Both the position numbers and the translations under genes were made by a program. Of a DNA stretch of 64,000 bases, positions 9,549 through 43,014 are shown in pieces. The DNA is from Vicinamibacterales bacterium. Lineage in GTDB: Bacteria; Acidobacteriota; Vicinamibacteria; Vicinamibacterales; 2-12-FULL-66-21. The stretch lies in NCBI GenBank assembly GCA_035495955.1, contig DATJFE010000070.1:29332-93331 (forward strand), given 5' to 3'. Positions within the stretch are counted from its first letter, which is position 1, and the number at the start of each line of letters is the position of its first letter. Under the pieces are notes generated by a model. It saw only the letters and a list, made by a program, of their open reading frames with translations, was not told the DNA's origin and did not search any database.

Positions 9549-9623
9549 GAAAGGTCAGCCTTCATCAGTGCTCGCGAGATCCCACCCCCGCCCGCTCTCG
9601 CGCGTCTTGGGGGTCGGGAGTTG

Positions 9624-9968
9624 TCATGCCGTCCTGATCTTCGCGACGCGATTGAGCGCGGAGAAAAAGTTGTCCCACACGTCTCTCTGGCTCGCGAGCG
9701 TCCGGCGTCCGGCGGGCGTGAGCTTATAGTACCGGCGGCGCCGCTGGCCGGCGCGCTCCACCCAGCGTCCTTCGATCAGGCCGCGATCCTCGAGGCGATA
9801 GAGCGTGGGGTAGAGCGACGTGACGTGGAAGTTGATGGCGCCGTCGGAGCGCCGGGCGATCAACTGGCCGATCTCGTAGCCATGGCGCGGCCGCTCTTCG
9901 AGCAGCGCCAGGATCAACAGTTCCGCGCTGCCGCGCTTCAGCTCGCGTTCGAGCTTGCGAATGGCCAT
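9624..9968 (-). CDS. PadR-family transcriptional regulator
   Basis: 114 aa. The sequence LLILALLEERPRHGYEIGQLI...LYPTLYRLEDRGLIEGRW...RRRYYKLTPAG is a canonical PadR winged helix. Confidence 0.9.
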   Translation of the reverse strand: MAIRKLERELKRGSAELLILALLEERPRHGYEIGQLIARRSDGAINFHVTSLYPTLYRLEDRGLIEGRWVERAGQRRRRYYKLTPAGRRTLASQRDVWDNFFSALNRVAKIRTA

Positions 9969-9975
9969 ATATGGC
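9964..9975. promoter_or_regulatory. 12-bp perfect palindrome GCCATATATGGC overlapping the padR start codon (candidate autoregulatory operator)
   Basis: The palindrome is read directly. It is an AT-rich core in an otherwise GC-rich context and includes the ATG of padR (9968-9966). The function is inferred only. Confidence 0.25.
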
Positions 9976-15316: not shown

Positions 15317-15748
15317 GTGATCAACTCGTCGCAGGATGACACCGAACCGGTTGAACCCACCCAGCCCCTGATCCTCGTCGTCGACGACTCCGTCGACACC
15401 CGCGCGATCTTCGGGGACTGCCTCGAACACGCGGGATTCCGTGTGACCACCGCCGAAGACGGCGAAGCGGCGATTGCGGCCGCCCGGGCGCATTCGCCCG
15501 CCATGATCATCATGGACCTCGCCATGCCGCGGCTGGACGGGTGGGAGGCGATGCGCCGCCTGCGCGCCGATCCCTTGACCGCAAAGATCCCTATCGTCGT
15601 CGTGAGCGCCTATGCCTTCGGCGACGAACCGGTGCAGGCGCGTGAAGCGGGCGCGGATTTGTGCCTGACCAAACCGTGCCTCCCGTCGCAGGTCGTGCGC
15701 GTCGTGCGTGCGATGCTGGTCCGTCAGCAGTTGGGGCAGACGGTTTAA
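15317..15748 (+). CDS. Stand-alone response-regulator receiver protein (CheY-like)
   Basis: 143 aa with a GTG start. It carries the DD pair (LVVDDSVD), a phospho-acceptor context (IIMDLAMPRLDG) and a conserved Lys (TKPCLP). No output domain or adjacent kinase is present. Confidence 0.8.
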   Translation: MINSSQDDTEPVEPTQPLILVVDDSVDTRAIFGDCLEHAGFRVTTAEDGEAAIAAARAHSPAMIIMDLAMPRLDGWEAMRRLRADPLTAKIPIVVVSAYAFGDEPVQAREAGADLCLTKPCLPSQVVRVVRAMLVRQQLGQTV

Positions 15749-15783
15749 AAGACGGAAGACGGAAGGCGGAAGACGGGAAACGG
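15749..15783. repeat. Heptanucleotide tandem repeat (AAGACGG x5; family AAGRCGG)
   Basis: Sequence aagacgg aagacgg aaggcgg aagacgg gaaacgg begins at the first base after the TAA stop (15746-15748). Confidence 0.9.
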
Positions 15784-15788
15784 AAAGT

Positions 15789-15938
15789 TCAAGGCGCCTT
15801 GCGCTTGGAGGCCTTCACTCGCTCCCGGCGGCCTCTAGCCGTGCTGCGACAGCTCAGAAAGATCTTGGCCAGTTCGTCCGCCTCCTTCCGGAGCGCTGCG
15901 GCAGCTTTCTCTGACGCGATGTTGGAGCGAATCAGCAT
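15789..15938 (-). CDS. Possible 49-aa basic protein (hypothetical)
   Basis: ATG-to-TGA ORF encoding MLIRSNIASEKAAAALRKEADELAKIFLSCRSTARGRRERVKASKRKAP. It lies in the 290-bp gap between two convergent genes and is bracketed by inverted heptamer arrays. No clear SD was seen and no homology was recognised. Confidence 0.25.
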   Translation of the reverse strand: MLIRSNIASEKAAAALRKEADELAKIFLSCRSTARGRRERVKASKRKAP

Positions 15939-16007
15939 GCAGCTTCGACGCGCGTCAAGCAGCGTCGGAGCCGGCCTCTTTTCTTCTCCTTCGTACTTGT
16001 GCCCGAA

Positions 16008-16035
16008 CTTCCGCCTTCCGTCTTCCGCCTTCCGT
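16008..16035. repeat. Heptanucleotide tandem repeat (CTTCCGY x4, the reverse complement of family AAGRCGG)
   Basis: Sequence reads cttccgc cttccgt cttccgc cttccgt. The array ends 3 nt from the stop of the minus-strand ctaG-like gene (16039-16041). Confidence 0.9.
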
Positions 16036-16038
16036 CTT

Positions 16039-17265
16039 TCAGCGAAGCGTATACAAGTACGCAGTGATGTCGCGCGCGTCCTCGTCCGTGACTCCCATTT
16101 CGGGCATCGCGTTCTTCGGATCGATCTTCTGCGGATGCTGGATCCACTGCTCCATGTTGTCCGGCGTGTTGATCAGGTGGCCGCCGAGATACTGACGGAC
16201 AGCGATGTTGGAAAGCGGTGGACCGACGACGGCGGTGGCCCCCGCAATGCCGGGGATGGTGTGGCACGCCGCGCAGCCGTACTTCCCGATGGCGGTTTTG
16301 CCGGCCGCGACGCGGCCGCCGGTGAGGGTTTCCGCGTCGCGTTCGACTGCCGAGCGGCACGCGCAGGACCCGAGCGCGAGGACCAGCACGACCAGCGGCA
16401 GCAGGCGCGACGCGGCGTCGGCGGCGCCGAGGCGGACGCGGCGTTCGGCTTCGCCGAGCCACGCCGCGCACAGCGCCAGGCCCAGGACGATGAACACGAC
16501 GCTCGCGGGGACCCACATAATGACGCCGGCGAGCTGCTGATCGGCCGCCGCCGCGGCGTATGCGGACTGGCCGGCCGCGGAGTACGCGGACTGCGCGGAC
16601 TTGACGTAATGGGGGTACCACACGGACGGCGCGACGGTCAGCAGGGCGCCGAGCGCGCTCGTGTGGACCCCGGTCAAAAACACGTAGAGCACGCCAAGAC
16701 CATATCCGAGCCGGCCGTAGCGTCCGTGGACCATCGCCCACCAGAAGATCGATCCGGCGAAAACGAAGGACAGGTGCTGAAGCGCGTGTATCGCTTCGTT
16801 GCCGAGCGCAGCTTCGTACCACGAGGGGATGTGCCATATCCAGAGTGCCGCGGCCTGGATCAGGAATGCGGCCAGCGGTGCCGTGGCGGCGTGCCATGCC
16901 CGGACCATGGGCGGCCGGCGGAACATCCGCGCGACCCGTTCGCGGTCTGCGTCGCCGAACGCCCAGATCCAGGCGAGGCCCGGATGTCCGAACGTCAGGA
17001 GCGGCGCCGCGACGAGCATCAGCAGCGTGTGCTGCGTCATATGAATAGAGAGCCGGCTCTCGGCGGCCGACGCGATCGGCGACAGCAGAGCGACGGCCAG
17101 GGCGATCCAGCCCGCCGCGAACGATCCCGCCGCCCAGGAAGCGATGCCCCGTCCGATTCCCGCGCGTCGCCATAGTCGGGCAACGCCGACGGCATAGAGT
17201 CCCCCCGCGAGCGCGAGCGGAATGACGACGAGCGGCTCGAATTCCCAGCGGCTCAGCGAGGGCAT
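16039..17265 (-). CDS. Caa3-type cytochrome oxidase assembly factor CtaG-like membrane protein fused to a C-terminal cytochrome c domain
   Basis: The start was chosen at MPSLSRWEFEPL (17265), although the ORF is open to 17556. The N-terminal multi-helix part (SIHMTQHTLLMLVAAPLL...HALQHLSFVFAGSIFWW) resembles PF09678-type CtaG. The C-terminus has CAACH followed by a Met-containing class-I cytochrome c fold. Confidence 0.75.
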   Translation of the reverse strand: MPSLSRWEFEPLVVIPLALAGGLYAVGVARLWRRAGIGRGIASWAAGSFAAGWIALAVALLSPIASAAESRLSIHMTQHTLLMLVAAPLLTFGHPGLAWIWAFGDADRERVARMFRRPPMVRAWHAATAPLAAFLIQAAALWIWHIPSWYEAALGNEAIHALQHLSFVFAGSIFWWAMVHGRYGRLGYGLGVLYVFLTGVHTSALGALLTVAPSVWYPHYVKSAQSAYSAAGQSAYAAAAADQQLAGVIMWVPASVVFIVLGLALCAAWLGEAERRVRLGAADAASRLLPLVVLVLALGSCACRSAVERDAETLTGGRVAAGKTAIGKYGCAACHTIPGIAGATAVVGPPLSNIAVRQYLGGHLINTPDNMEQWIQHPQKIDPKNAMPEMGVTDEDARDITAYLYTLR

Positions 17266-17645
17266 GGGTGGAGCACCAGCACGGGAATCTCGGCCGCCAG
17301 GACAGCGATCGCGAAGAAGCCGCAGAGCGCCAGACCGCCGATCGCCATGAAACGCGCCCGGATCAGTGCGGTTTCGCGCGCCTCGAACGTCGCCGTGTCT
17401 TCGCTTGCCGCGGCCGGCGCCGCGCGCCACGCGCCCAGGGCCGCCAGCGCGATCAGGAGGAGCGCGGCCGCCGTGGCCACGTGCAGCATCCATGTGTGGC
17501 GGCTCTCGCAGGCGACGTACGAAAGGACGTAGTTCGTCTCGAGCAGCGCCGCCCACACGACCGGTCCCGCCAGCACGCCGATCCAGAGCGCCGCGAGTCG
17601 CGGCCCCCAGTCAAGAGATCCGCGGTCCAAAGTAGATGACGGCAT
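17253..17645 (-). CDS. Small integral membrane protein in the cox operon (hypothetical)
   Basis: About 130 aa from MPSSTLDRG with 3-4 hydrophobic helices. It overlaps the coxIII 3' end and the ctaG-like 5' end. The exact start is uncertain. Confidence 0.5.
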   Translation of the reverse strand: MPSSTLDRGSLDWGPRLAALWIGVLAGPVVWAALLETNYVLSYVACESRHTWMLHVATAAALLLIALAALGAWRAAPAAASEDTATFEARETALIRARFMAIGGLALCGFFAIAVLAAEIPVLVLHPCPR

Positions 17646-18219
17646 AGATGGGCAGCCATGTGAACACGACGAAATACCAGTAGAGCGCATTCTCCGACAC
17701 GTCCACGAAGCGGCGTTCGTTGAGATCGGTTCCGACGAAGATCAGCACCGCGAGGACCAGCGAATCGAGAAAGTCGGTGACGACGTGGACGGTGTGCAGG
17801 CCGAGGAGGACCCAGACGACCGAGCCGTACGCGTTGGCGTCCCAGCGCACGTTCAGCGCGCCGAATTCGAGGAACCGCACGACGTTGAATCCGACGGCGA
17901 ACAGCAGGCACACGGCCAGCCAGAGTTTGACGGCCGCGAGGTCGAATCGCTCGGCGGCCTTCTTCGTGAGCGCATTGGGCACGCACGACGCCAGCAGGAT
18001 GATCGTATTGAGCGTCCCCCAGAAGAGCTGCGGCGAGGGTCCGGTCGGCGGCCAGTGCGGGACGCGTCCCTTCAGGTAGAGGTAGCTGACGATCACGATC
18101 GCGAAGACCGAGCCTTCGATGATCATCATGCTCGCCGTCGCCCACCAGAGCAGGCTGCGGTGGCCGAACCCGTATTCCGGGATATCGGAGACGTCGAGCG
18201 CGACACGCGACGACGCCAT
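17611..18219 (-). CDS. ctaE: Cytochrome c oxidase subunit III
   Basis: 202 aa starting at MASSRVALDV. The motifs LHTVHVVTD and YWYFVVFTWLPIY are typical of subunit III. The start overlaps the subunit I stop (ATGA at 18217-18221). Only the C-terminal part of the 827-aa track ORF is the real gene. Confidence 0.85.
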   Translation of the reverse strand: MASSRVALDVSDIPEYGFGHRSLLWWATASMMIIEGSVFAIVIVSYLYLKGRVPHWPPTGPSPQLFWGTLNTIILLASCVPNALTKKAAERFDLAAVKLWLAVCLLFAVGFNVVRFLEFGALNVRWDANAYGSVVWVLLGLHTVHVVTDFLDSLVLAVLIFVGTDLNERRFVDVSENALYWYFVVFTWLPIYAVIYFGPRIS

Positions 18220-20216
18220 CACGACAGGCTTTCCCGCGCGGTGAGCCGGGTCGGCGCGCCGTGCTCCAACGCCTTTTTGCCTTTGGTCGGCCAGAACCAG
18301 CCGACCAGCGCGATGAAGATTGGAATCGATCCCCAGACGACGCCCTGCGCCTGGAAGATCGACCAGACGAACATGGCGCTGGTCGTGATCGCCGTCAGCA
18401 GCGGCCAGAGGGAGGGACCCGGCATCGGGTATCGATGATCCGGTTCGGCGTCGAGCAGGAACGTGACGAGGACCTCGCGCGTGTCGCTCGCGAGTCCGAC
18501 AATCGGGGGCGGCGCGAGTTCGGTGTGCCACAGAGGCTCGCTGCTGGCGACCGTCGGCTGCGGCGAGAAGTTGTAAGCCGGCGGCGGCGACGAGGTCGCC
18601 CATTCGAGCGTGGCGGCGCCCCACGGATTGGGTCCGGCGACCGCGCCGGCACGAAGGCTCACGATAACGTTCACCAGGTAGACGACCAGCGACACGAAGA
18701 TCACCGCGGCCCCCACGCTCGCCAGCAGGTTCAGGCCGTGCCAGCCCATCGACGCCGGGTAGGTGTAGACGCGCCGGGGCATGCCGTCCAGGCCGAGGAG
18801 GTGCATCGGAAAGAACGTCATGTTGAAGCCGACGAACAGGAGCCAGAAGCTCGCGCGGCCAAGCCGGTCGCTCAGCATGCGCCCGGTCATTTTCGGGAAC
18901 CAGAAGAAGATGCCGCCGAGCAGCGGGAAGGTCGAGCCGCCAATCAGCACGTAATGCAGATGCGCGACAACGAAATACGTGTCGTGCACCTGCCGATCGA
19001 CGGGACCGGCCGCGAGCACGACCCCGGTCAGGCCGCCGATGATGAAGATGAAGAACAACGACGCCATGTAGAGGAACGGAACGGTGATCTGCAGGCGCCG
19101 CGCCGACCAGATCGTGGCGATCCAGTTGAAGATCTGGATGCCTGTCGGAATCACGATCATCATGCTCGCGGCGCTGAAGAAGCTCAGGCTGAGCTCCGGA
19201 AGGCCGGTGGCGAACATGTGATGGACCCACACGCCGAAGCCGATGAACGCCGTCGAGAGCATCGAGAGCACCATCGTGAGGTTGCCGACGACGGGCCGGC
19301 GGGCGGATGTCGCAATCACTTCGGACATCATTCCCAGCGCGGGCAGGAAGATGATGTAGACCTCGGGGTGACCGAAGAACCAGAACAGATGCTGCCAGAG
19401 CAGCGGGTCTCCTCCCTCGGCCTGGTTGTAGAAGTGCGTGCTGACCAGGCGATCGAGAATGAGGCACGTGCTCGAGATGACGATCGACGGCATCGCGAAG
19501 ATGACCATGAACGACACGATCAGCATCGCCCAGACGAACAGCGGCATGCGGTTCAGCGACATGCCCGGCGTCCGGAGCTTGAAGATCGTCACGATGAGGC
19601 AGGTCGCGACCACCAGCGCCGAGACCTCGGTGAACGTAATCAGTTGCGCCCATACGTCGGCCCGCTTGCCGTAGCCGTACTCCGGCCCGGCCAGCGGGAG
19701 ATAGCTGAACCACCCGTTGTCGGGGCCGATGTTCAGGAAGAACATCGAATAGAGGAAGATCCCGCCGAAGAGGTACATCCAGTAGCTGAACGCGAGCATC
19801 CTCGGAAACGCCATGCTGCGCGCGCCGACCATCAGCGGCACCAGATAGACGCCCATCGCAAGCACGACCGGCACCGCGAACAGGAACATCATCGTCGTCC
19901 CGTGCGTGGTGAAGATCTGGTTGTACTGATCGGGCGAGAGGAAGGTGTTGTCGGGGCGTGAGAGCTGGATCCGCATGAGCGCCGCGAGGACCCCGCCGAG
20001 CGTGAAGAAGCCGAACGCCGTGACGATGTAGCGCCGGCCGATTGCCTTGTGATCGGTATCGGAGAGCCACGCGACGAGCCCGCGGCCGTTCCACCAGGTC
20101 TTCTCCAGCGCGCGGCGCTCGCGTTCGAGTCCCTCGACCGTCAGGCGCGCGTCGTGGTCCGCCAGCCGCGGGCGGCGCTCGTCGTCTCGTCGCCGCTTCG
20201 TCTCGCCGGGCGTCAC
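18219..20216 (-). CDS. ctaD: Cytochrome c oxidase subunit I (heme-copper, aa3/caa3 type)
   Basis: 665 aa. WFFGHPEVYIIFLPALGMMSEV, VWVHHMFATG and HDTYFVVAHLHYVL are hallmark motifs. The GTG start overlaps the subunit II stop (GTGA). Confidence 0.95.
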   Translation of the reverse strand: MTPGETKRRRDDERRPRLADHDARLTVEGLERERRALEKTWWNGRGLVAWLSDTDHKAIGRRYIVTAFGFFTLGGVLAALMRIQLSRPDNTFLSPDQYNQIFTTHGTTMMFLFAVPVVLAMGVYLVPLMVGARSMAFPRMLAFSYWMYLFGGIFLYSMFFLNIGPDNGWFSYLPLAGPEYGYGKRADVWAQLITFTEVSALVVATCLIVTIFKLRTPGMSLNRMPLFVWAMLIVSFMVIFAMPSIVISSTCLILDRLVSTHFYNQAEGGDPLLWQHLFWFFGHPEVYIIFLPALGMMSEVIATSARRPVVGNLTMVLSMLSTAFIGFGVWVHHMFATGLPELSLSFFSAASMMIVIPTGIQIFNWIATIWSARRLQITVPFLYMASLFFIFIIGGLTGVVLAAGPVDRQVHDTYFVVAHLHYVLIGGSTFPLLGGIFFWFPKMTGRMLSDRLGRASFWLLFVGFNMTFFPMHLLGLDGMPRRVYTYPASMGWHGLNLLASVGAAVIFVSLVVYLVNVIVSLRAGAVAGPNPWGAATLEWATSSPPPAYNFSPQPTVASSEPLWHTELAPPPIVGLASDTREVLVTFLLDAEPDHRYPMPGPSLWPLLTAITTSAMFVWSIFQAQGVVWGSIPIFIALVGWFWPTKGKKALEHGAPTRLTARESLS

Positions 20217-21151
20217 TTCAGCGACTCCAGATAGGCGATGACGGCCTGCAGTTGCTCGTCACTCAAGCCTGGAACCGGCATCCGGTTCCCTGGCTTGACG
20301 TGCTGGGGATCGGCAATCCAGCCGCCGAGGTATCCGCGCGTATTGGGCAGCGTTCCCGCGGCGATCGTGCTGCGGGATCCGATGTGCGTCAGGTCGGGCG
20401 CGCTTCGCGCGCCGGCGAGTGTTCCCGTGATGTTGTGGCACATGGCGCACGGACCACGCTCCACCACCGCCTTGCCCCGCTCCTGTTCTGGCGTCGAGGG
20501 CGGCACAGCCGGTGCGCGATTCGCCGCGAGCCAGCGCTCGAAGGCGTCGGGCGCCTCGGCGACGACCACGAGCGCCATCTTCGCGTGCTGCAGCCCGCAA
20601 TATTCGGCGCACTGCCCCCGGTACACGCCGGCACGGTCTGCCTGGAGCCACAGCTCGTTCAACCGTCCGGGAATCAGATCGACTTTTCCCTGCAGGCTGG
20701 GAATCCAGAGACTGTGGATGACGTCGGTCGAGAGCAGATCGATGCGAACGGGCCGCCCGACAGGAAGATGGATTTCGTTCGCCGTGGTGACGTTCAGCGA
20801 CGGCAGGTCATTGACGTACTGCACATCCCACCACCACTGATTGGCGGTCACCTGCAGGTGCAGGGCGTCAGGCGTACGGATGGCGTCCTCGGCGCGGCCC
20901 GTGAGCACGCTTTCAAACAGGATCGCGATGAGCACGACCGCCGACAGAGCTCCGGCGACGGCGATGTTCGTTCCGAGCTGACGGTCGGTGGCACGCGATG
21001 CGGCACGCCGGCCGGTGCGAATGGCGATGAGCGCCGCCATCGCAACCGCGATCCAGACCGCCGCGCAGATCCCGAAAATGAGCCACCACAGATGGCTCGC
21101 GCGCGCCGCCTCGATTCCCGCCGGATGGATGACGGACTGAACGTGCGGCAT
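20213..21151 (-). CDS. ctaC: Cytochrome c oxidase subunit II with C-terminal cytochrome c domain (caa3 type)
   Basis: The start was chosen at MPHVQSVIHP (21151), where it overlaps the upstream stop (ATGA). The CuA motif is DVIHS...CAEYCGLQHAKM. The C-terminal heme c motif is CAMCH. Confidence 0.9.
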   Translation of the reverse strand: MPHVQSVIHPAGIEAARASHLWWLIFGICAAVWIAVAMAALIAIRTGRRAASRATDRQLGTNIAVAGALSAVVLIAILFESVLTGRAEDAIRTPDALHLQVTANQWWWDVQYVNDLPSLNVTTANEIHLPVGRPVRIDLLSTDVIHSLWIPSLQGKVDLIPGRLNELWLQADRAGVYRGQCAEYCGLQHAKMALVVVAEAPDAFERWLAANRAPAVPPSTPEQERGKAVVERGPCAMCHNITGTLAGARSAPDLTHIGSRSTIAAGTLPNTRGYLGGWIADPQHVKPGNRMPVPGLSDEQLQAVIAYLESLK

Positions 21152-21726
21152 CACCGGTGCCCCGTCTGGACGGGCACCAGCGGCGAACGCCGCGATTCCG
21201 GAGGACCCGTCGCCTGATCGTCGTTGCGGCCGGCCGCGTTGGTCGGCGCCACCTGGCCGGCCATCGACTGCACGTACGCCACCAGTTGCCAGATTTGCTG
21301 CGCCGGAATGTGCCCGCCGAACGACGGCATGCCGTCGGGGCGCCCCTGCGAGATCGTCGCGAAGATCTGATCCGGCTGGCTGCCGTAGATCCACTTCTCG
21401 TCCATCAGCGGCGGTCCGATCGCGCCGCCGCCGTTCGCGCCGTGGCACGGCGCACAGTTATACGCGCCGTACAGCCGCTTGCCTTCGCCGATGCCCCACG
21501 CATTGTCCTGATACGGACTCCTGACGGACGCATTCTGCTGCGGCGCACCCGGCTCGAGCTGGCCGACGCGCACCGCCGTCTCGCGATTCGCCGCCGCCGG
21601 CAGCTCCTGATACCGCCGCGCCTCCCGCTCGCACCCCGCGAGCAGAGCAAGTGCGGCCACCAAAACCAAAAGAGTCCGTGTCGTCCGTGGCCCCTTGATC
21701 CGTCTAGTCCGCGTGGTCCGCGGCAT
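21151..21726 (-). CDS. Monoheme c-type cytochrome lipoprotein (candidate electron carrier between the PQQ dehydrogenase and the oxidase)
   Basis: 191 aa with a lipobox (LLAGC). It has a single CAPCH and a distal Met context (GRPDGMPSFG). Confidence 0.8.
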   Translation of the reverse strand: MPRTTRTRRIKGPRTTRTLLVLVAALALLAGCEREARRYQELPAAANRETAVRVGQLEPGAPQQNASVRSPYQDNAWGIGEGKRLYGAYNCAPCHGANGGGAIGPPLMDEKWIYGSQPDQIFATISQGRPDGMPSFGGHIPAQQIWQLVAYVQSMAGQVAPTNAAGRNDDQATGPPESRRSPLVPVQTGHR

Positions 21727-21727
21727 C

Positions 21728-22534
21728 TCAGTGGCCCTCCGTCCTCGGCACGCCGTAGCCCGCCAGAATCGCGTCGATCTGTCCGCGGCGGCGCGCGATG
21801 AAGTCGTCGAGCTCCTGCTTCAGGGCGACGTCGCCGTGGCGCACGCCCATCGAGATGTCGAACACGAACGGCAGCGACGGCGAGTCGGCCTGCGGGGTGA
21901 CGGGATTGAGCTGCAGGTCGGTGGCACGCGTCTTCGCGAAATAACCCGCCGCCGGTCCCCACACGACGGCCGCGTCGACGTCGCCGCGATCCACGGCGTC
22001 GACGATGCCGGCGAGCGGGCAGGGCCGCGAGTAGTCGCCGAAGACCGAATACCCGACGACGTTTTGGACGATGCCGCGATTGCTGAGCGCGTGCGCCGGC
22101 GGGCTGTTGCTGAAGTCATCGCCGATCAACTGGACGCCGATCCGCAATCGGCGCAGCCGTGGATCGTCGAGCGATCGGAGATCGAGATGCCGGTCGCGCC
22201 TCGCGACGAAGACATAGCTGGACCGGTAGTACGGGTTCGTCGTCTGCGCGAGGTCGAACGCCGTCGGCACTCCCATCAGCACGTCGCACGCGCCGGCCTT
22301 CAGCGTGTGCCGGACGTAGCCGCGCCGCTGTGCCCACCACGTATATTCGAGCGTCGCATGGCGATCCCGGGCGAGCAGTTCGGCGATCTTGTTCTCGAAT
22401 CCTTCGCCCGCGCGATTCGAGAACGGCAGATTATTCGGATCCGAACACACGCGCAGCACCCGCGCCGGCGCCCGATGACACGCGGCGATCGCCATGGCGG
22501 CAACGATGCACGCATACGCCCGAAGGCGGATCAC
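21728..22534 (-). CDS. Quinoprotein-dehydrogenase-associated periplasmic substrate-binding protein (MxaJ/XoxJ-like)
   Basis: The GTG start at 22534 overlaps the dehydrogenase stop (GTGA). LRVCSDPNNLPFSN...GFENKIAELLA...GACDVLMGVP matches the MoxJ/TIGR03871-type family as I recall it. Confidence 0.8.
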   Translation of the reverse strand: MIRLRAYACIVAAMAIAACHRAPARVLRVCSDPNNLPFSNRAGEGFENKIAELLARDRHATLEYTWWAQRRGYVRHTLKAGACDVLMGVPTAFDLAQTTNPYYRSSYVFVARRDRHLDLRSLDDPRLRRLRIGVQLIGDDFSNSPPAHALSNRGIVQNVVGYSVFGDYSRPCPLAGIVDAVDRGDVDAAVVWGPAAGYFAKTRATDLQLNPVTPQADSPSLPFVFDISMGVRHGDVALKQELDDFIARRRGQIDAILAGYGVPRTEGH

Positions 22535-24420
22535 CGTCCGCCTCCAAGCGCGAAGACGTAGAGCATGCCGCCCCTCGTAGTCGCCTTTTTCAGATCGGCC
22601 ATGACTCTGCCGAAGCCGTTGCCCGCGGTGGGATCCCGCGGATCGAGATCGCCGGCAACGATGGCGCCCGCCCATCCGCCGACGCCCGCCTGCACCGCGA
22701 CGTACTCCCGGCCGTCTGGACCCTTATAGGCAATCGGCTGCCCGACGATCCCGGAGCCGCATTTGAACTGCCACAGGAGATCGCCGGTTCTGGCGTTGAC
22801 GGCCTTGAACCAGCCGTCCATCGTCCCGTAGAAGACGAGGTCGCTTGCCGTGACCATCGTCCCGCTCCAGACGGGGAAGTTCTCCTTCACTTCCCATGCG
22901 ACCTTCGCGCCCACGGGATCCCAGGCCGTCACCGCGCCGCGATTGCCGCCCGGCCCGGCCTTGAAGACGACGCTCGCGCCCACATACGGCGTGCCGGCGA
23001 TGTAGCTGGTCGACATGCCTTCGACGTCCTCGCACAGATTCTGGCGAGGGATGTAAAGCAGCCGGGTCGTCGGCGAGAACGAGGACGGCTGCCAGTCCTT
23101 CATCCCCGGCGCCCCGGGGCAGTTGTCGCGCGTCACGACGCCCTGGCGCGTCCCCTTCATTTCCTGATCGCTCGCGTCGATCAGGCGACCCGTCTTGAGA
23201 TCGACGCCATGGTTCGTATTGACGAAGCCGTACGGCGCGGCGGAGAGCACTTCTCCCGTCGAGCGGTCGAGGACGTAGAGCAGACCGTTGCGATCGGGAT
23301 GCATCGCGACTTTTCGCGTCTGGCCGCCCATCTGCAGATCGGCCAGCACCCATTCGTTCACGCCGTCGTGATCGTAGAGATCGTGCGGGCTCGTCTGATA
23401 GGCCCATCGGGCCTCCCCGGTGTCCGCGTCGCGCGCGAAGGTCGTCGCGGTCCACTTGTTGTCGCCCGGCCGCTGGCCGGGATTCCACGGGCCGGGATTC
23501 GAGGTGCCGTAGTAAATCAGGTTCAGGTCCGCGTCGTACGAGATCCAGCCCCAGACGGTGCCGCCGCCGATCCGCCACGCTTCGCCCGGCCACGTCGAGA
23601 TGCCGAGATCCTTGCCGCGGTAATCCGCGTAGAACGGCTTGAAGCTCGGACCGATCAGCACGTCCTTGTCCGGTCCCGTGCTGTAGCCGCGCCACGCGAT
23701 CTTTCCCGAGGCCGCGTCGAGCGCGGTGATCCACCCGCGCACGCCGAACTCGCCGCCGCTGTTGCCGACGAGCACCTTCCCCTTGACGACGAGCGGCGCC
23801 ATCGTGATCGTCTCGCCCTTGTTGATGTCGGCGAGCTGCGCGATCCATTTCGGCTCGCCCGTCGCCGCGTCCACCGCGATCGTGCGGCCGTCGAGGGTGT
23901 TGAAGAAGATGCTGCCGTTCGCGTACGACGCGCCGCGGTTCACGAGGTCGCAGCAGGCCACGCCCTTGGCGGCGCCGAGTGGTTTTGGATCGTAGGACCA
24001 TTTCATCGGCGCGCCCGGCCTGGCCAGATCGAACGCGTAGAGAATGTTCGGGAAGGGCGTCACGAGATACATCGTGTCGCCGACGACGAGCGGCGCCGCC
24101 TCGTGGCCCGAAACCATGCCGGTCGAGAACGTCCACGCAACGCCGAGCTGGCGCACGTTGTCCGTGTTTATCTCTGTCAGACCCGAAAAACGCGTGGACG
24201 CGTAGTTCTTCGCCGGCAGCACCCACTGTCCGTCGTCGTCCTGCAGGGCAGCCGGATCGACCGACGTCATCTGGCCGGATAGAGCTTTCGAAGACGCGGG
24301 TTTCGGGTTCTCAACTTTCTGAGCCTGGCAACCGCCGGCGGCGAGTGCGATTCCCGCCAGCAGGAGCCCTGGTGTCCGGACGCCGTGTGCTCGCATCACG
24401 GTTCCGTAATGCAAAAGCAT
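22531..24420 (-). CDS. PQQ-dependent dehydrogenase, methanol/ethanol family (XoxF/PedH-like, predicted lanthanide type), lipoprotein
   Basis: 629 aa with a lipobox (AAGGC). It has a vicinal Cys-Cys (GVACCDLVNRG) and W-rich propeller repeats. The catalytic region is SPHDLYDHDGVNE, with Asp-x-Asp. An alternative start exists at 24396 (M9). Confidence 0.9.
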   Translation of the reverse strand: MLLHYGTVMRAHGVRTPGLLLAGIALAAGGCQAQKVENPKPASSKALSGQMTSVDPAALQDDDGQWVLPAKNYASTRFSGLTEINTDNVRQLGVAWTFSTGMVSGHEAAPLVVGDTMYLVTPFPNILYAFDLARPGAPMKWSYDPKPLGAAKGVACCDLVNRGASYANGSIFFNTLDGRTIAVDAATGEPKWIAQLADINKGETITMAPLVVKGKVLVGNSGGEFGVRGWITALDAASGKIAWRGYSTGPDKDVLIGPSFKPFYADYRGKDLGISTWPGEAWRIGGGTVWGWISYDADLNLIYYGTSNPGPWNPGQRPGDNKWTATTFARDADTGEARWAYQTSPHDLYDHDGVNEWVLADLQMGGQTRKVAMHPDRNGLLYVLDRSTGEVLSAAPYGFVNTNHGVDLKTGRLIDASDQEMKGTRQGVVTRDNCPGAPGMKDWQPSSFSPTTRLLYIPRQNLCEDVEGMSTSYIAGTPYVGASVVFKAGPGGNRGAVTAWDPVGAKVAWEVKENFPVWSGTMVTASDLVFYGTMDGWFKAVNARTGDLLWQFKCGSGIVGQPIAYKGPDGREYVAVQAGVGGWAGAIVAGDLDPRDPTAGNGFGRVMADLKKATTRGGMLYVFALGGGR

Positions 24421-24750
24421 TTCCGAAGAGTGTTCTGTCTATAATGAACGCGAGCGCTCTCACGCAAATCGCGCAGGATCAAATCGTCGAGAGCCGCTTG
24501 CGATCGGAATAGCTGGTCGCCGAACTCGCGCTGGAGCGCGGGCGGTAATGGCGTCTGTTCGACGAGGCGTCTCAGCGGTATCCAGTCACCGGGCTGGATC
24601 CCGCCCGTGACTCGTTTCACGACGCCTGCACTGTAGGGTCGGCTTCTTTTTATGTAAGGAATCCCATCGCGCTCCGGATTTCAACTCTCAGGCTCAGCCG
24701 GGATGTCGACACCGGACGCGCTGGCACGGCTGTTGATTTACAAGGGAGAT

Positions 24751-24960
24751 ATGGCAAAGAGACGCAAGCGATCGGATACCGCGTCAAGCCCGAACGAGCA
24801 GCCGCCGCCGGCGGTCAACGGCAACCGCGATCGAATCGCGGCGCGCGCGTACGAGCTCTACATCGCGCGCGGCGGCACCCACGGCGCCGACTGGGAAGAC
24901 TGGCTGGCGGCCGAACGCGAATTCGCCAAGGCAGGCGAGTCCAACAAAAGCGAGGAATAG
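24751..24960 (+). CDS. DUF2934-family small protein
   Basis: RIAARAYELYIARGGTHGADWEDWLAAEREF is the DUF2934 signature. An SD (agggaga) precedes the ATG at 24751. The ORF is open from 24703. Confidence 0.7.
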   Translation: MAKRRKRSDTASSPNEQPPPAVNGNRDRIAARAYELYIARGGTHGADWEDWLAAEREFAKAGESNKSEE

Positions 24961-24969
24961 AGCTGGCCG

Positions 24970-25614
24970 ATGGCGCCACCATCCGCGTCCCTGCTCGATC
25001 GGCGCCTTCCGTTCGTGCTCGTCGCCGACGATGACAGGGATACGCGGGAGCTCTATCGGGCCTGCTTCGACACCAGCGGGTACCGCACGGCGGAAGCCGG
25101 CACCGGATCGCAGGCGATCGTGTCGGCCGTCGAAATCGTTCCGGACGTCCTCCTCACGGATTATGTGCTCCCGGATATCGACGGCCTCACGGTGGCCCGT
25201 CGTCTGAAGGCGGACGCACGCACGGCGGGCATCTGTATTCTGATGGTGACGGGCTACGCGAATCCTGATCTCGTTCAGCGGGCGGCCGCGGTCGGCATCG
25301 AACGCGTCCTGCTCAAGCCGTGTCTGCCCCAGGCCGCGTTGCGCGAAGTGTCGCGTGCGCTCGCCAGGAGTCAACACCGCAGGATGGAACTGAGCGCATC
25401 GCCGCCGGCCGGGCTTGCGTCGCCGCGTCCGGACGGAAGTGCCGTTTCGCGCGTGCGCGACGAATACGCCGCGATCCCCGGACTCTCTCTGACTCCGGAG
25501 CAGGCGCGCCTCGTGTTCGACCTCGATGCGGACATGTGCGAGCGCGTGCTCGACGCGCTGGTCGCCGAGGGATTCCTGTCGCGCGCGCCGAACGGAACGC
25601 TCAAGAGACCGTAG
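24970..25614 (+). CDS. Response regulator with non-canonical C-terminal (possible winged-helix) domain
   Basis: Receiver motifs are present: VADDDRD, LLTDYVLPDIDG and LKPCLP. The roughly 90-aa C-terminal tail (LSLTPEQARLVFDLDADMCERVLDALVAEGFLSR) does not match OmpR, NarL or NtrC outputs that I know. Confidence 0.8.
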   Translation: MAPPSASLLDRRLPFVLVADDDRDTRELYRACFDTSGYRTAEAGTGSQAIVSAVEIVPDVLLTDYVLPDIDGLTVARRLKADARTAGICILMVTGYANPDLVQRAAAVGIERVLLKPCLPQAALREVSRALARSQHRRMELSASPPAGLASPRPDGSAVSRVRDEYAAIPGLSLTPEQARLVFDLDADMCERVLDALVAEGFLSRAPNGTLKRP

Positions 25615-26024: not shown

Positions 26025-26762
26025 GTGATGGCGCGAGGCCGGGCGCGAGTGGGATGCTCGGGCTGGCAGTACCGACACTGGCGCGGCGACTTCTATCCGG
26101 CGGATCTGCCGCTGGCGCGCTGGTTCGAGTACTACACGGAGAGGTTCGATACCGTCGAGATTAACAACAGTTTCTATCGGCTGCCGGAGCGCGCCACCTT
26201 CGCGTCGTGGGCTCGGAGGGCGCCGCCGAGATTCGAATTTGCCGTGAAGGCGAGCCGGTTTCTGACGCACATGAAGAAGCTGAAGGACCCCGAGGAACCG
26301 CTCGACCGCCTGTTCGCGCGGATGCGCGCCCTCGGTTCCGGCCTCGGTCCCGTGCTGTATCAGTTGCCCCCGGGTTGGAAGGCGGACGTGCCCCGCTTCC
26401 GGCATTTCCTGGAAAGCCTGCCGCGGCGCACGCGCCACGTGATCGAATTCCGAGACAGCAGTTGGTATCACGGCGAGATCCTGGCGTTGATGGAGCGGCA
26501 TCGCGTCGCGCTGTGCCTGCACGACATGGCGGGCTCCGCCGCGGCGCGCGAACGCGTCGGCCCCTTCGTCTACGTGCGGTTTCACGGCGCGACGGCGAAG
26601 TACGGCGGCGGGTACACGGAAGAGCGGCTGCGCGGCTGGGCCGAGTGGCTCGACGCGCAGCGCGCCGACGGCTGCGACGTGTATGCCTATTTCAACAACG
26701 ACGCCGGCGGACATGCGCCGCGCGACGCGGTGACGCTGCGGCGCCTCCTGGAGGATTCATGA
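26025..26762 (+). CDS. DUF72 (YecE/UPF0759) family protein
   Basis: GCSGWQYRHWRGDFYP...FDTVEINNSFYRLP...YVRFHG matches the DUF72 signature. Confidence 0.85.
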   Translation: MMARGRARVGCSGWQYRHWRGDFYPADLPLARWFEYYTERFDTVEINNSFYRLPERATFASWARRAPPRFEFAVKASRFLTHMKKLKDPEEPLDRLFARMRALGSGLGPVLYQLPPGWKADVPRFRHFLESLPRRTRHVIEFRDSSWYHGEILALMERHRVALCLHDMAGSAAARERVGPFVYVRFHGATAKYGGGYTEERLRGWAEWLDAQRADGCDVYAYFNNDAGGHAPRDAVTLRRLLEDS

Positions 26763-36180: not shown

Positions 36181-36223
36181 CGCCGGGATCCGTGAAAAAG
36201 CTCAGTCTATCCTAGTCGACCGG

Positions 36224-36300: not shown

Positions 36301-36314
36301 AGGTTCAGTTGCAG

Positions 36315-36338: not shown

Positions 36339-36351
36339 AGTTCAATCAGCC

Positions 36352-42979: not shown

Positions 42980-43014
42980 GGGGTCCCTCCAGTACGGATC
43001 GTCGGGTTTCTCTA

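What the first reader, a model, noticed from the sequence alone, without database searches (positions are those of the whole stretch)
16039..24420. PQQ alcohol dehydrogenase, XoxJ-like protein and cytochrome c fused into one operon with a complete caa3-type oxidase
**Seen in sequence.** Nine co-directional minus-strand genes have no intergenic space:
- dehydrogenase / XoxJ-like: GTGA overlap at 22531-22534
- XoxJ-like / cytochrome c: 1-nt gap
- cytochrome c / CoxII: ATGA at 21149-21153
- CoxII / CoxI: GTGA at 20213-20216
- CoxI / CoxIII: ATGA at 18217-18221
- CoxIII / small membrane protein / CtaG-like: overlapping

**Established knowledge.** PQQ methanol/ethanol dehydrogenases pass electrons to a dedicated c-type cytochrome and then to a terminal oxidase. 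The xoxFJG or pedEH clusters I know of are not physically joined to cox genes.

**Inference.** This looks like a self-contained periplasmic alcohol-to-O2 electron transfer chain expressed as one unit. It has three c-heme stations: a soluble lipoprotein cytochrome, the CoxII c-domain and the CtaG c-domain. No pqq biosynthesis genes are present in the window.
Basis: partly seen in the sequence, partly recalled or inferred. Interest (0 to 1): 0.7.

Follow-up and report, generated by a model that had tools for sequence, protein, structure and literature searches.

The report
Alcohol dehydrogenase operon joined to oxidase
A soil bacterium carries a lanthanide-type alcohol dehydrogenase in one tightly packed operon with its own cytochrome c oxidase; the layout is real and widely conserved, but it is already described as the XoxF3 system or COX operon type a-II, so it is not new.

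Summary
Eight, not nine, co-directional minus-strand genes at 16039-24420 are joined by start/stop overlaps or a 1-nt gap:
- PQQ methanol/ethanol-family dehydrogenase
- MoxJ-like binding protein
- lipoprotein cytochrome c
- CoxII with a cytochrome c domain
- CoxI
- a 5-helix CoxIII
- a 3-helix membrane protein
- CtaG fused to a cytochrome c

The linkage is not chance. Of 73 judgeable orthologous loci from at least six phyla, 67 keep cox genes beside the dehydrogenase. The same cluster sits on plasmids of cultured rhizobia and methanotrophs.

It is already published. Degli Esposti 2014 named "COX operon type a-II", which often contains PQQ dehydrogenases. Voutsinos 2024 described XoxF3 systems with CoxI/II/III, CtaG, CytC and the small hypothetical protein. 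Transcriptome data for Methylocella tundrae T4 show xoxF3JG and the neighbouring oxidase genes moving together.

- The cytochrome c belongs to the oxidase module, which also occurs without XoxF3.
- The CtaG-fused haem is not shown to be an electron-transfer station.
- The oxidase lacks the canonical K-channel lysine (Gln in 53/53) and the D-channel entrance residues, so "complete caa3 proton pump" is unproven.

Novelty: already known. Interest is about 0.3.

The parts
22531..24420 (-). xoxF3-type PQQ, predicted lanthanide-dependent, alcohol/methanol dehydrogenase (629 aa). It has a probable lipoprotein signal (Cys31), the vicinal Cys156-Cys157 pair, Glu203, Asn308, the catalytic Asp350 and the lanthanide-ligand Asp352.
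   Evidence: - TIGR03075 scores 620 bits.
- The best solved-structure match is XoxF of M. fumariolicum SolV (4MAE, 656 bits). The YDHDG motif aligns to its WDYDG, whereas MxaF has WDYAG.
- In a neighbour-joining tree it falls in one clade with M. tundrae T4 XoxF3.
21728..22534 (-). XoxJ-like periplasmic binding protein (268 aa) with a lipobox (IAAC) and a GTG start inside a GTGA overlap
   Evidence: TIGR03871 (MoxJ_2) scores 304 bits against a cutoff of 212. The MoxJ equivalog TIGR03870 scores 147 bits against 258 and is not met. The junction was read.
21151..21726 (-). Lipoprotein class-I cytochrome c (191 aa) with lipobox LAGC, haem motif CAPCH and a Met ligand in GMPSF. It is the probable electron acceptor of the dehydrogenase and donor to CoxII. 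It is part of the oxidase module.
   Evidence: - Pfam Cytochrome_CBB3 and Cytochrom_C.
- It is not cytochrome cL: TIGR03872 scores 34.7 bits against 147.8.
- Its homologue lies directly upstream of coxB in XoxF3-less modules.
20213..21151 (-). CoxII (312 aa) with the CuA site (His in DVIHS; CAEYCGLQHAKM) and a C-terminal cytochrome c domain (CAMCH; about nt 20216-20488)
   Evidence: TIGR02866 scores 154.6 bits against a cutoff of 147.7. Pfam finds COX2 and Cytochrom_C. The sequence was read.
18219..20216 (-). CoxI (665 aa). All six His ligands, the cross-link Tyr and the Glu of GHPEVY are present. The K-channel Lys is Gln (PTGIQIF). The D-channel residues N121, D132 and N139 are Val, Ser and Leu. 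It carries a C-terminal extension of about 100 aa with two helices.
   Evidence: - TIGR02891 scores 679.9 bits against a cutoff of 670.75.
- Residue mapping uses the alignment to mycobacterial CtaD.
- Conservation was counted in 53 linked CoxI sequences.
- The extension gives only a weak hit to Cyt_c_ox_IV, E 0.4.
17611..18219 (-). CoxIII, the short 5-helix form (202 aa)
   Evidence: Pfam COX3 matches profile positions 112-255 of 258.
17253..17645 (-). Conserved 3-helix membrane protein (about 130 aa; the start is ATG 17645 or ATG 17690). It has two invariant Cys, one at the end of helix 1 and one at the C-terminus. It belongs to no known family.
   Evidence: - It is found after coxIII in more than 50 related loci.
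- The invariant Cys pair comes from alignment A1.
- It has no Pfam or PDB match.
- It matches the '~110-130 aa hypothetical between CoxIII and CtaG' of Voutsinos 2024.
16039..17265 (-). Caa3_CtaG-type copper assembly factor fused to a C-terminal cytochrome c domain (CAACH; about nt 16042-16311). A lipobox-like LGSC lies at the fusion point.
   Evidence: Pfam Caa3_CtaG scores 180 bits, with a Cytochrom_C domain as well. The ORF is continuous. The two parts are separate genes in many relatives.
24421..24702 (.). Divergent intergenic region upstream of the dehydrogenase. It is the only non-coding gap of the unit and is the presumed promoter region.
   Evidence: The sequence was read. Genes for a DUF2934 protein and a response regulator diverge on the + strand. 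The scan found no sigma-70 consensus, which is not informative for this phylum.

Best explanation
This is an instance of the XoxF3 system, also called COX operon type a-II. The host is an uncultured soil Acidobacteriota-like bacterium.

**Composition.** Two genes, xoxF3 and xoxJ, encode a periplasmic PQQ alcohol dehydrogenase with the lanthanide-type active site and its binding protein. They are docked in front of a portable six-gene cytochrome c oxidase module:
- lipoprotein cytochrome c
- CoxII with a cytochrome c domain
- CoxI
- 5-helix CoxIII
- 3-helix protein with two conserved cysteines
- CtaG fused to cytochrome c

**Shown.**
- The gene identities.
- The intact redox ligands.
- The gapless, translationally coupled layout.
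- Conservation of the linkage across phyla and on plasmids.
- Co-regulation in one cultured relative.

**Inferred.**
- The eight genes form one transcript.
- Electrons from alcohol oxidation (methanol is the usual assumption; the substrate is unknown) pass from PQQ to the membrane-tethered cytochrome c.
- They then pass to the CoxII haem c, CuA, the low-spin haem and the haem-CuB centre, and finally to O2.
- This route bypasses the quinone pool and the bc1 complex.
- CtaG, and perhaps the two-cysteine protein, serve copper insertion rather than electron transfer.
For: **Identities and ligands.**

**Layout.** Junction overlaps were read. No terminator-like site lies at any junction, and there is no Rfam element.

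**Conservation of the linkage.**
- 59 loci have cox downstream and 9 have it upstream (one locus has both), giving 67 linked of 73 judgeable loci.
- These come from Acidobacteriota, Gemmatimonadota, Methylomirabilota, Verrucomicrobiota, Bacteroidota and Alpha-, Beta- and Gammaproteobacteria.
- In Sphingomonas-type loci the cox module sits between xoxF and xoxJ.
- The same cluster is annotated on plasmids of M. ciceri, S. medicae WSM419 (conjugative), Bradyrhizobium sp. 195, Methylocystis iwaonis and M. tundrae T4.
- Pairwise identities of the dehydrogenase and CoxI correlate: r = 0.85, Mantel p = 0.001.

**Clade assignment.** The window dehydrogenase clusters with M. tundrae T4_00353, which Awala 2024 labels xoxF3. 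The mapping to the plasmid locus is confirmed through WP_134492881.1.

**Co-regulation in T4.** The two log2 fold changes are for MeOH+N2O against MeOH+O2, and for CH4+O2+N2O against CH4+O2.

| Genes | Comparison 1 | Comparison 2 |
|---|---|---|
| xoxF3 / xoxJ3 / xoxG3 | +3.3 / +3.7 / +2.9 | -2.7 / -1.7 / -2.3 |
| adjacent ctaE / ctaD / ctaC | +4.1 / +4.8 / +5.9 | -2.7 / -2.2 / -3.8 |
| housekeeping aa3 | +1.0 / -0.2 / -1.2 | +0.7 / +2.4 / +2.1 |

**Literature.** PMC4013037 and PMC10875860.
Against: - There are no transcript, protein or activity data for this organism or for any XoxF3 enzyme (Voutsinos 2024 says so).
- The oxidase module, with its own cytochrome c, also occurs without XoxF3. 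The wiring is therefore not exclusive, and an internal promoter upstream of the cytochrome c gene cannot be excluded.
- In M. tundrae the cox genes are on the opposite strand, so one transcript is not obligatory.
- Six of the 73 judgeable orthologous loci lack cox nearby.
- CoxI lacks the K-channel Lys and the D-channel entrance residues, so normal A-type energy conservation is uncertain.
- xoxF3 was barely expressed and unresponsive to lanthanum in M. silvestris BL2 (PMC9291206).
- No genes for PQQ synthesis, haem A synthesis or lanthanide uptake are in the window.
Confidence: 0.72

Rival explanations
1. The oxidase is a generic portable module, and functional specificity is loose. It is a mobile, stress- or low-oxygen-induced cytochrome c oxidase cassette that lands beside various genes, XoxF3 being one partner among several. 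It accepts electrons from the general periplasmic cytochrome c pool. The adjacency reflects shared regulation rather than a dedicated wire.
For: - Near-identical modules (about 59-60% CoxI identity, with the same cytochrome c, small protein and CtaG) occur without XoxF3 on plasmids of R. etli, M. japonicum, B. barranii and C. grimmiae.
- These copies often lie near FdhF/YdeP-family oxidoreductases and stress-type genes such as Ku, LigD, Hsp20, ferritin-like and Mn catalase.
- More listed plasmids carry this CoxI than carry the XoxF3-type dehydrogenase.
- The cluster is induced under anoxic N2O growth in T4.
Against: - The linkage to XoxF3 holds in 67 of 73 loci across phyla.
- The module is inserted between xoxF and xoxJ in Sphingomonas-type loci.
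- The start/stop overlaps are tight.
- The dehydrogenase and oxidase are co-regulated in T4.
Confidence: 0.18
2. The oxidase is not a conventional proton-pumping caa3 enzyme. It may be a non-pumping or alternatively gated terminal oxidase that serves as an electron sink, for oxygen scavenging or for redox balancing during periplasmic alcohol oxidation.
For: - Position K362 is Gln in 53 of 53 linked CoxI sequences.
- Position N121 is Val, Ile or Leu in 50 of 53.
- Position D132 is Asp in only 6 of 53.
- A second variant has GHPWVY (E286 replaced by Trp) and Ala at K362.
- From established knowledge of R. sphaeroides and P. denitrificans aa3, K362 and D132 mutants are severely impaired.
Against: - All metal ligands, the cross-link Tyr and, in this window, Glu286 are conserved under evident purifying selection.
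- B- and C-family oxidases work with other channel residues.
- No functional data exist.
Confidence: 0.08
3. The arrangement is a chance juxtaposition of an alcohol dehydrogenase operon and a housekeeping cox operon in this genome.
Against: The arrangement is conserved in dozens of genomes from at least six phyla and on plasmids. All seven junctions are overlapping or nearly so.
Confidence: 0.01

Closest known systems
XoxF3 systems of Acidobacteria, Gemmatimonadetes and Verrucomicrobia (Voutsinos et al. 2024, BMC Biol, PMC10875860; cox and ctaG in xoxF3 operons first noted by Keltjens et al. 2014 according to that paper)
   Same: - The gene set matches: XoxF3, XoxJ, a c-type cytochrome called XoxG, CoxII, CoxI, CoxIII, a hypothetical protein of about 110-130 aa between CoxIII and CtaG, CtaG and CytC.
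- The phyla are the same.
- The lanthanide-ligand Asp is present.
   Different: - Here CtaG and CytC are fused into one ORF.
- No NRAMP or TonB-dependent receptor gene lies nearby in the window.
COX operon type a-II, later called A1 oxidase subtype a (Degli Esposti et al. 2014, PLoS One, PMC4013037; Degli Esposti et al. 2019, PMC6431628)
   Same: - COX1 has a C-terminal fused extension.
- COX3 is the 5-helix form.
- CtaG is of the Caa3_CtaG type.
- COX2 is fused to cytochrome c.
- The operon 'often contains PQQ-dependent dehydrogenases'.
- It is present in Rhizobium, Sinorhizobium and Mesorhizobium.
   Different: That work covered Alpha- and Betaproteobacteria. This window is from an Acidobacteriota-like soil bacterium, and the survey here extends the type to at least six phyla.
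Canonical xoxFGJ / mxaFJGI methanol oxidation clusters (for example M. extorquens XoxF5 with XoxG cytochrome cL and XoxJ)
   Same: Both have a PQQ dehydrogenase of the same TIGR03075 family, a MoxJ-like binding protein and a dedicated c-type cytochrome encoded next to it.
   Different: - In the canonical clusters the cytochrome is cL/XoxG (TIGR03872). It passes electrons through cytochrome cH to an unlinked aa3 oxidase.
- Here the cytochrome is a CcoP-like class-I lipoprotein, and the oxidase is encoded in the same unit.
The rus operon of Acidithiobacillus ferrooxidans (cyc2-cyc1-ORF-coxBACD-rus; Appia-Ayme 1999, cited within PMC8239418). This comparison rests on prior knowledge.
   Same: It follows the same design principle: one operon encodes a periplasmic electron-donor branch together with its own A-type cytochrome c oxidase.
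   Different: The donor is Fe(II) through an outer-membrane cytochrome and rusticyanin, not a quinoprotein dehydrogenase. The donor proteins are unrelated.
Bacillus subtilis ctaCDEF-ctaG (caa3). This comparison rests on prior knowledge.
   Same: - The gene order matches: CoxII-c, CoxI, CoxIII, a small membrane protein and Caa3_CtaG.
- CoxII carries a fused cytochrome c.
   Different: - The small protein here is not CtaF/COX4_pro (no Pfam hit).
- The K- and D-channel residues differ.
- A quinoprotein dehydrogenase is attached.

Membership tests
PQQ methanol/ethanol-family dehydrogenase, XoxF (lanthanide) type, clade XoxF3 | Membership of the methanol/ethanol PQQ dehydrogenase family (TIGR03075) | tested here: met
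   620.5 bits against a cutoff of 480
PQQ methanol/ethanol-family dehydrogenase, XoxF (lanthanide) type, clade XoxF3 | Active-site set: the vicinal Cys-Cys pair, Glu, Asn and the catalytic Asp, plus the extra Asp two residues later that distinguishes lanthanide from calcium enzymes | tested here: met
   Cys156-Cys157, Glu203, Asn308 and Asp350-His-Asp352 align to SolV XoxF. MxaF has Ala at the last position.
PQQ methanol/ethanol-family dehydrogenase, XoxF (lanthanide) type, clade XoxF3 | Phylogenetic placement with a reference sequence labelled XoxF3 | tested here: met
   A neighbour-joining tree places it in one clade with M. tundrae T4_00353 (xoxF3 in Awala 2024). Identity is 64% to that sequence, against 54.5% to XoxF2 (4MAE), 48.9% to a XoxF5-like sequence and 48.2% to MxaF. 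Only one labelled reference was used, and the tree has no bootstrap support.
PQQ methanol/ethanol-family dehydrogenase, XoxF (lanthanide) type, clade XoxF3 | Lanthanide-dependent oxidation of methanol or another alcohol | not testable with these tools
   No XoxF3 enzyme has been characterised biochemically (PMC10875860).
XoxJ/MoxJ periplasmic binding protein | Match to the quinoprotein-dehydrogenase-associated binding-protein model | tested here: met
   TIGR03871 scores 304 bits against 212. The MoxJ equivalog TIGR03870 scores 147 bits against 258 and is not met.
XoxG / cytochrome cL | Match to the cytochrome cL (MoxG) equivalog model | tested here: not met
   TIGR03872 scores 34.7 bits against 147.8. 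The best resemblance is to CcoP-type class-I domains. The protein is homologous to the cytochrome that precedes coxB in XoxF3-less modules.
A-family (aa3/caa3) haem-copper cytochrome c oxidase | Subunit I with six His ligands, the His-Tyr cross-link Tyr and the Glu of the GHPEV motif (A1 signature) | tested here: met
   TIGR02891 scores 679.9 bits against 670.75. H102, H284, H333, H334, H419, H421, Y288 and E286 are invariant in 53 of 53 sequences.
A-family (aa3/caa3) haem-copper cytochrome c oxidase | K-channel lysine (K362 in R. sphaeroides numbering) | tested here: not met
   PTGIQIF aligns to PTGIKFF of mycobacterial CtaD. The residue is Gln in 53 of 53 linked CoxI sequences.
A-family (aa3/caa3) haem-copper cytochrome c oxidase | D-channel entrance residues (D132, N121, N139) | tested here: not met
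   The window has Ser, Val and Leu at these positions. In the family, D132 is Asp in 6 of 53 and N121 is hydrophobic in 50 of 53.
A-family (aa3/caa3) haem-copper cytochrome c oxidase | Subunit II with a CuA site and a fused cytochrome c (the 'c' of caa3) | tested here: met
   The CuA motif is CAEYCGLQHAKM, with His in DVIHS. The haem c motif is CAMCH.
A-family (aa3/caa3) haem-copper cytochrome c oxidase | Haem A in both haem sites | not testable with these tools
   No ctaA or ctaB gene is in the window. The haem type cannot be read from sequence.
COX operon type a-II (Degli Esposti 2014) | COX1 with a C-terminal fused extension, a 5-helix COX3, Caa3_CtaG in the operon, and frequent association with a PQQ dehydrogenase | tested here: met
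   CoxI is 665 aa with a two-helix tail. COX3 matches profile positions 112-255 only. PF09678 scores 180 bits. The dehydrogenase lies upstream. The description is in PMC4013037.
Caa3_CtaG copper assembly factor | Pfam PF09678 domain | tested here: met
   180 bits against a cutoff of 27.7. The Bacillus equivalog TIGR02737 scores 49.7 bits against 279 and is not met.
Prokaryotic oxidase subunit IV (CtaF/COX4_pro, Cyt_c_ox_IV) | Sequence match of the small protein between coxIII and ctaG | tested here: not met
   There is no Pfam hit for the window protein or for 39 homologues, and no PDB hit with a profile. It is equivalent by position only.

The most novel reading that the evidence does not exclude
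The oxidase attached to XoxF3 (type a-II) may be a mechanistically distinct branch of the A family.

- It has an invariant Gln in place of the K-channel lysine.
- Its D-channel entrance is hydrophobic or variable.
- It carries an uncharacterised 3-helix subunit with two invariant cysteines predicted to face the periplasm.
- It has a cytochrome c-tagged copper chaperone.

Together with three lipid-anchored periplasmic partners, it could form a tethered alcohol:O2 oxidoreductase supercomplex. That complex would take up protons by a new route, or would not pump at all. I did not find this residue pattern discussed in the papers I could search.
Probability: 0.25. Interest if true: 0.6.

Novelty: already known. 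Interest (0 to 1): 0.3.

Why it matters
XoxF3 is reported as the most abundant lanthanide-type alcohol dehydrogenase clade in several soil and weathered-rock metagenomes, yet no member has been studied biochemically.

A dehydrogenase hard-wired to its own terminal oxidase would give soil Acidobacteria, Gemmatimonadetes and rhizobia a short respiratory route for methanol and other volatile alcohols. That route would be independent of the quinone pool. It bears on soil trace-gas turnover and on biological demand for lanthanides.

The practical value of this check has two parts:
- It shows that the arrangement is established, not new.
- It points to cultured, genetically tractable carriers (S. 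medicae WSM419 pSMED03, M. ciceri plasmids, M. tundrae T4) in which the coupling, and the odd proton-channel residues of the oxidase, can be tested.

Tried and rejected
- **Start of the small protein.** I first placed it at a TTG in a 'TTGA' overlap at 17614. A frame check showed this is out of frame (the error). The in-frame starts are ATG 17645 and ATG 17690.
- **Promoters and terminators.** The sigma-70 scan found no promoter. It found only weak intragenic hairpins, none at a junction. The region after ctaG folds no better than shuffled sequence, z = +1.1. Neither result is informative for this phylum.
- **RNA families.** The Rfam scan of 15500-25200 found nothing.
- **Small membrane protein.** The protein and a 39-sequence profile matched no Pfam family and no PDB chain. 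I did not predict its structure, because fold matches for a 3-helix bundle would be unspecific.
- **CoxI C-terminal extension.** It gave only E = 0.4 to Cyt_c_ox_IV. The alignment to the Thermus subunit I+III fusion runs to residue 650. Whether the tail is COX4-like or COX3-like is unresolved.
- **Flanking genes.** The flanking response regulators, DUF2934, DUF72, SDR and PntB genes are not conserved next to the cluster in relatives. I rejected them as parts of the system.
- **Literature access.** Keltjens 2014 is not held in the library. Its content is cited only through Voutsinos 2024. The Voutsinos supplements hold clade labels but no sequences. Clade placement therefore used M. tundrae T4 XoxF3 as the reference.
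- **Apparent broken ORFs.** High-GC3 ORFs at 26692-27681 and 60946-61569 on the minus strand are antisense artefacts of plus-strand genes.

Full report
**1. What is in the sequence**

The minus strand between 24420 and 16039 carries eight ORFs. Pfam and NCBIfam identify them as follows:
- a PQQ dehydrogenase of the methanol/ethanol family (TIGR03075, 620 bits)
- a MoxJ_2-type periplasmic binding protein (TIGR03871, 304 bits)
- a class-I c-type cytochrome
- CoxII with a C-terminal cytochrome c domain
- CoxI
- a short CoxIII that matches only the last five helices of the COX3 profile
- a small membrane protein with no family
- a Caa3_CtaG assembly factor fused to a cytochrome c domain

I read the junctions base by base:
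- GTGA at 22534-22531
- a 1-nt gap at 21727
- TGATG at 21153-21149
- GTGA at 20216-20213
- TGATG at 18221-18217
- a 35-nt overlap of the small protein (ATG 17645) with coxIII
- a 13-nt overlap of ctaG (ATG 17265) with the small protein

The count of nine should be eight, because CtaG and its cytochrome c are one ORF here. Two of the 'ATGA' labels are really TGATG. Upstream lies a 282-nt divergent intergenic region. No promoter-like or terminator-like site falls at any junction, and no Rfam family matches.

**2. Sequence-level checks**

*Dehydrogenase.* It aligns best to the lanthanide enzyme XoxF of Methylacidiphilum fumariolicum SolV (4MAE, 656 bits). It keeps the Cys-Cys pair, the Glu, the Asn, the catalytic Asp and the extra Asp (YDHDG against WDYDG; MxaF has WDYAG).

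*Lipoprotein signals.* The dehydrogenase, the binding protein and the cytochrome c all begin with lipoprotein-type signal sequences (AGGC, IAAC, LAGC; read). This suggests membrane tethering.

*CoxII.* It has a complete CuA motif and a CxxCH haem motif.

*CoxI.* It has all six His ligands, the cross-link Tyr and the GHPEVY Glu. Alignment to mycobacterial CtaD shows three replacements:
- The K-channel Lys is Gln (PTGIQIF against PTGIKFF).
- The D-channel entrance Asp is Ser.
- The two Asn are Val and Leu (AMGVYLVPLMVGARSMAFPRMLA against [23 protein letters not shown]).

**3. Surroundings**

Pfam scans of the rest of the window and a PqqA motif search found no PQQ biosynthesis genes, no haem A synthesis genes and no other A-type oxidase. 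The flanking genes are not conserved next to the cluster in relatives.

The exact dehydrogenase protein occurs on three short JGI soil-metagenome contigs. The closest genome hit is a Vicinamibacterales MAG at 74% identity. The source is therefore probably an uncultured soil Acidobacteriota.

**4. Is the linkage conserved?**

A scan of one genome per species returned 80 loci with dehydrogenase orthologues of 61-74% identity. I compared all eight window proteins with these loci by tblastn and classified the results.

| Class | Loci |
|---|---|
| Too short to judge | 7 |
| Judgeable | 73 |
| cox cluster directly downstream, same strand | 59 |
| cox cluster directly upstream, same strand | 9 |
| Both arrangements (one locus, included in the two rows above) | 1 |
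| Linked in total | 67 |
| No cox within reach | 6 |

The unlinked loci are mostly Phenylobacterium, where a YncE-like propeller follows the dehydrogenase instead.

The linked loci come from several classes of Acidobacteriota and from Gemmatimonadota, Methylomirabilota, Verrucomicrobiota (Opitutus), a Bacteroidota MAG, Sphingomonadales, Caulobacterales, Burkholderiales and Xanthomonadales.

In Sphingomonas-type loci the whole cox module sits between xoxF and xoxJ. Pairwise identities of the dehydrogenase and CoxI are correlated (r = 0.85, Mantel p = 0.001). This fits joint inheritance, although vertical descent alone would also produce a correlation.

**5. Cultured carriers**

The same cluster is annotated in RefSeq on plasmids of five cultured strains:
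- Mesorhizobium ciceri (nine genes, with CtaG and the cytochrome c separate)
- Sinorhizobium medicae WSM419 pSMED03 (a conjugative plasmid)
- Bradyrhizobium sp. 195
- Methylocystis iwaonis
- Methylocella tundrae T4 p1, where the cox genes are convergent

**6. Clade**

Awala et al. 2024 (PMC11102522) label M. tundrae T4_00353-5 as xoxF3, xoxJ3 and xoxG3. They label T4_00356 and T4_00359-61 as 'Complex IV (A2-caa3-type)'. The protein accession of T4_00356 (WP_134492881.1) is the ctaG gene of my plasmid locus, so the mapping is certain.

In a neighbour-joining tree the window dehydrogenase and all loci form one clade with this XoxF3. That clade is separate from XoxF2 (54.5% identity), a XoxF5-like sequence (48.9%) and MxaF (48.2%).

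**7. Published knowledge**

- Degli Esposti et al. 2014 (PMC4013037) defined 'COX operon type a-II'. It has COX1 with a C-terminal fusion and a 5-helix COX3. [quoted passage not shown]
- Voutsinos et al. [quoted passage not shown] They say Keltjens et al. 2014 had already seen cox and ctaG in a few xoxF3 operons. I could not read Keltjens 2014.

The finding is already known at the genomic level. No XoxF3 enzyme or type a-II oxidase has been characterised, as far as the searched papers show.

**8. Evidence on function from a relative**

Supplementary Dataset 6 of Awala 2024 gives two transcriptome comparisons for T4. Values are log2 fold changes.

| Genes | MeOH+N2O (anoxic) vs MeOH+O2 | CH4+O2+N2O vs CH4+O2 |
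|---|---|---|
| xoxF3 / xoxJ3 / xoxG3 | +3.3 / +3.7 / +2.9 | -2.7 / -1.7 / -2.3 |
| neighbouring ctaG | +3.0 | -1.2 |
| ctaE_1 / ctaD_1 / ctaC_2 | +4.1 / +4.8 / +5.9 | -2.7 / -2.2 / -3.8 |
| housekeeping aa3 (T4_00953, T4_00957, T4_00958) | +1.0 / -0.2 / -1.2 | +0.7 / +2.4 / +2.1 |

The dehydrogenase and its neighbouring oxidase move together in both comparisons, and the housekeeping aa3 does not follow them. This supports functional coupling even where the genes are on opposite strands.

Other reports are mixed. xoxF3 was barely expressed and unresponsive to lanthanum in M. silvestris BL2 (PMC9291206). It was strongly induced by cerium in M. trichosporium OB3b (PMC12482762). I did not verify that the OB3b gene has a cox neighbour.

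**9.

*(a) The oxidase is a portable module.* A tblastn search with CoxI against plasmids found many records at about 59-60% identity. In R. etli CIAT 652 pC, M. japonicum pMLb, B. barranii and C. grimmiae the same set is present without any XoxF3, often near an FdhF/YdeP-family oxidoreductase. That set is cytochrome c, coxB, ctaD, cox3, the small protein, ctaG and a second cytochrome c.

The cytochrome c upstream of coxB is clearly homologous in modules with and without XoxF3. It is not a cytochrome cL (TIGR03872, 34.7 bits against 147.8). So the 'XoxG3' of the literature is better seen as the oxidase module's own entry cytochrome.

*(b) The channel residues are atypical throughout.* In 53 linked CoxI sequences:
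- K362 is Gln in all 53.
- N121 is Val, Ile or Leu in 50.
- D132 is Asp in only 6.
- All redox ligands and E286 are invariant.

The XoxF3-less plasmid copies share this pattern. A second variant is found where cox lies upstream or convergent (Caulobacterales, M. tundrae) and in Methylocystis. It has GHPWVY (E286 replaced by Trp) and Ala at K362. I found no discussion of this in the papers searched. One relevant review, Degli Esposti 2020, is not held, so I do not claim priority.

*(c) The small protein has two invariant cysteines.* One lies at the end of helix 1 and one at the C-terminus. By the positive-inside rule both face the periplasm (the topology is inferred).

**10. Mechanism**

The best-supported reading is a short respiratory branch:
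- alcohol is oxidised at the lanthanide/PQQ site in the periplasm
- electrons pass to the lipid-anchored cytochrome c
- then to the CoxII haem c and CuA
- then to the low-spin haem
- then to the haem-CuB centre, and finally to O2

This branch is encoded and probably transcribed as one unit.

What is shown:
- the gene identities
- the intact ligands
- the gapless layout
- the conservation of the linkage
- co-regulation in one relative

What is inferred:
- a single transcript
- the electron path
- the substrate
- lanthanide dependence
- the haem type
- energy conservation

The CtaG-fused cytochrome c is more likely linked to assembly or to redox control of copper insertion than to the main path. 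It is attached to an assembly factor, it is a separate gene in many genomes, and it carries a lipobox-like LGSC at the fusion point.

**11. Verdict**

- Novelty: already known.
- Interest is low to moderate (0.3). The arrangement is published and present in annotated reference genomes, but it remains untested experimentally.
- The proton-channel signature of the attached oxidase is a concrete lead, and cultured strains are available in which to test it.

Noticed in passing
window 18219-20216 (CoxI); also L005-L094: CoxI of this oxidase family has Gln in place of the K-channel Lys in 53 of 53 sequences. It has hydrophobic or variable residues at D-channel positions N121, D132 and N139. All metal ligands, Tyr288 and Glu286 are invariant. 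XoxF3-less plasmid copies share the pattern.
   Followed up: partly
L012 (383-3400), L013, L023, L025, L029, L060, L072, L073, L079, L085, L088: There is a second oxidase variant linked to XoxF3. Its cox genes lie mostly upstream of, or convergent with, the dehydrogenase. Its CoxI has GHPWVY or AHPWVY (Glu286 replaced by Trp) and Ala or Ser at the K362 position, with D132 retained. Identity to the window CoxI is about 46-50%.
   Followed up: partly
window 17253-17645; alignment A1: The 3-helix protein between coxIII and ctaG has exactly two invariant residues in 39 homologues. Both are Cys, one at the end of helix 1 and one at the C-terminus, and both probably face the periplasm. It has no Pfam or PDB relative.
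   Followed up: partly
L091 (R. etli pC), L092 (M. japonicum pMLb), L093 (B. barranii), L094 (C. grimmiae): The same oxidase module occurs without XoxF3 on rhizobial and Burkholderiaceae plasmids. It is repeatedly next to an FdhF/YdeP-family molybdoenzyme and to stress-type genes (Ku, LigD, Hsp20, ferritin-like, hemerythrin).
   Followed up: partly
L012 (Gemmatimonadales) and L077 (Opitutus): L012 has two oxidase modules flanking the dehydrogenase, one of each variant. L077 has a tandem duplication of CoxI-CoxIII inside the cluster.
   Followed up: no
L020, L045, L080 (Sphingomonadaceae): xoxJ lies about 6.8 kb downstream of xoxF, after the whole cox module. The oxidase genes are therefore inserted between xoxF and xoxJ.
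   Followed up: no
window 53145-60623 (+): A second respiratory cluster is present. It encodes a multihaem cytochrome c7-like protein, a large molybdopterin-like protein with 4Fe-4S domains, a 689-aa protein with a weak cytochrome bd subunit I match (85 bits) and a class-I cytochrome c. It resembles an Alternative Complex III-like or bd-like module.
   Followed up: no
window 6825-9554, 10912-13383, 36632-39268, 40535-43042; PadR genes at 9624-9974 and about 36196-36654: The window holds four large MacB/FtsX-type permease genes. Two of them each lie near a PadR-family regulator.
   Followed up: no
window 43047-45368 (+): A P1B-type ATPase with N-terminal YHS and HMBD metal-binding domains, probably a copper exporter, lies about 19 kb from the oxidase operon. 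A link to oxidase copper supply is speculative.
   Followed up: no
window 16009-16036 (-): A tandem 14-nt direct repeat, GACGGAAGGCGGAA in two copies, follows the ctaG stop codon 2 nt downstream. The region has no significant secondary structure.
   Followed up: partly
window 16380-16350 (-), inside ctaG-cytochrome c: A lipobox-like LALGSC lies at the junction of the CtaG and cytochrome c domains. This suggests that the fusion arose from a once-separate lipoprotein cytochrome gene, as is still seen in many relatives.
   Followed up: no
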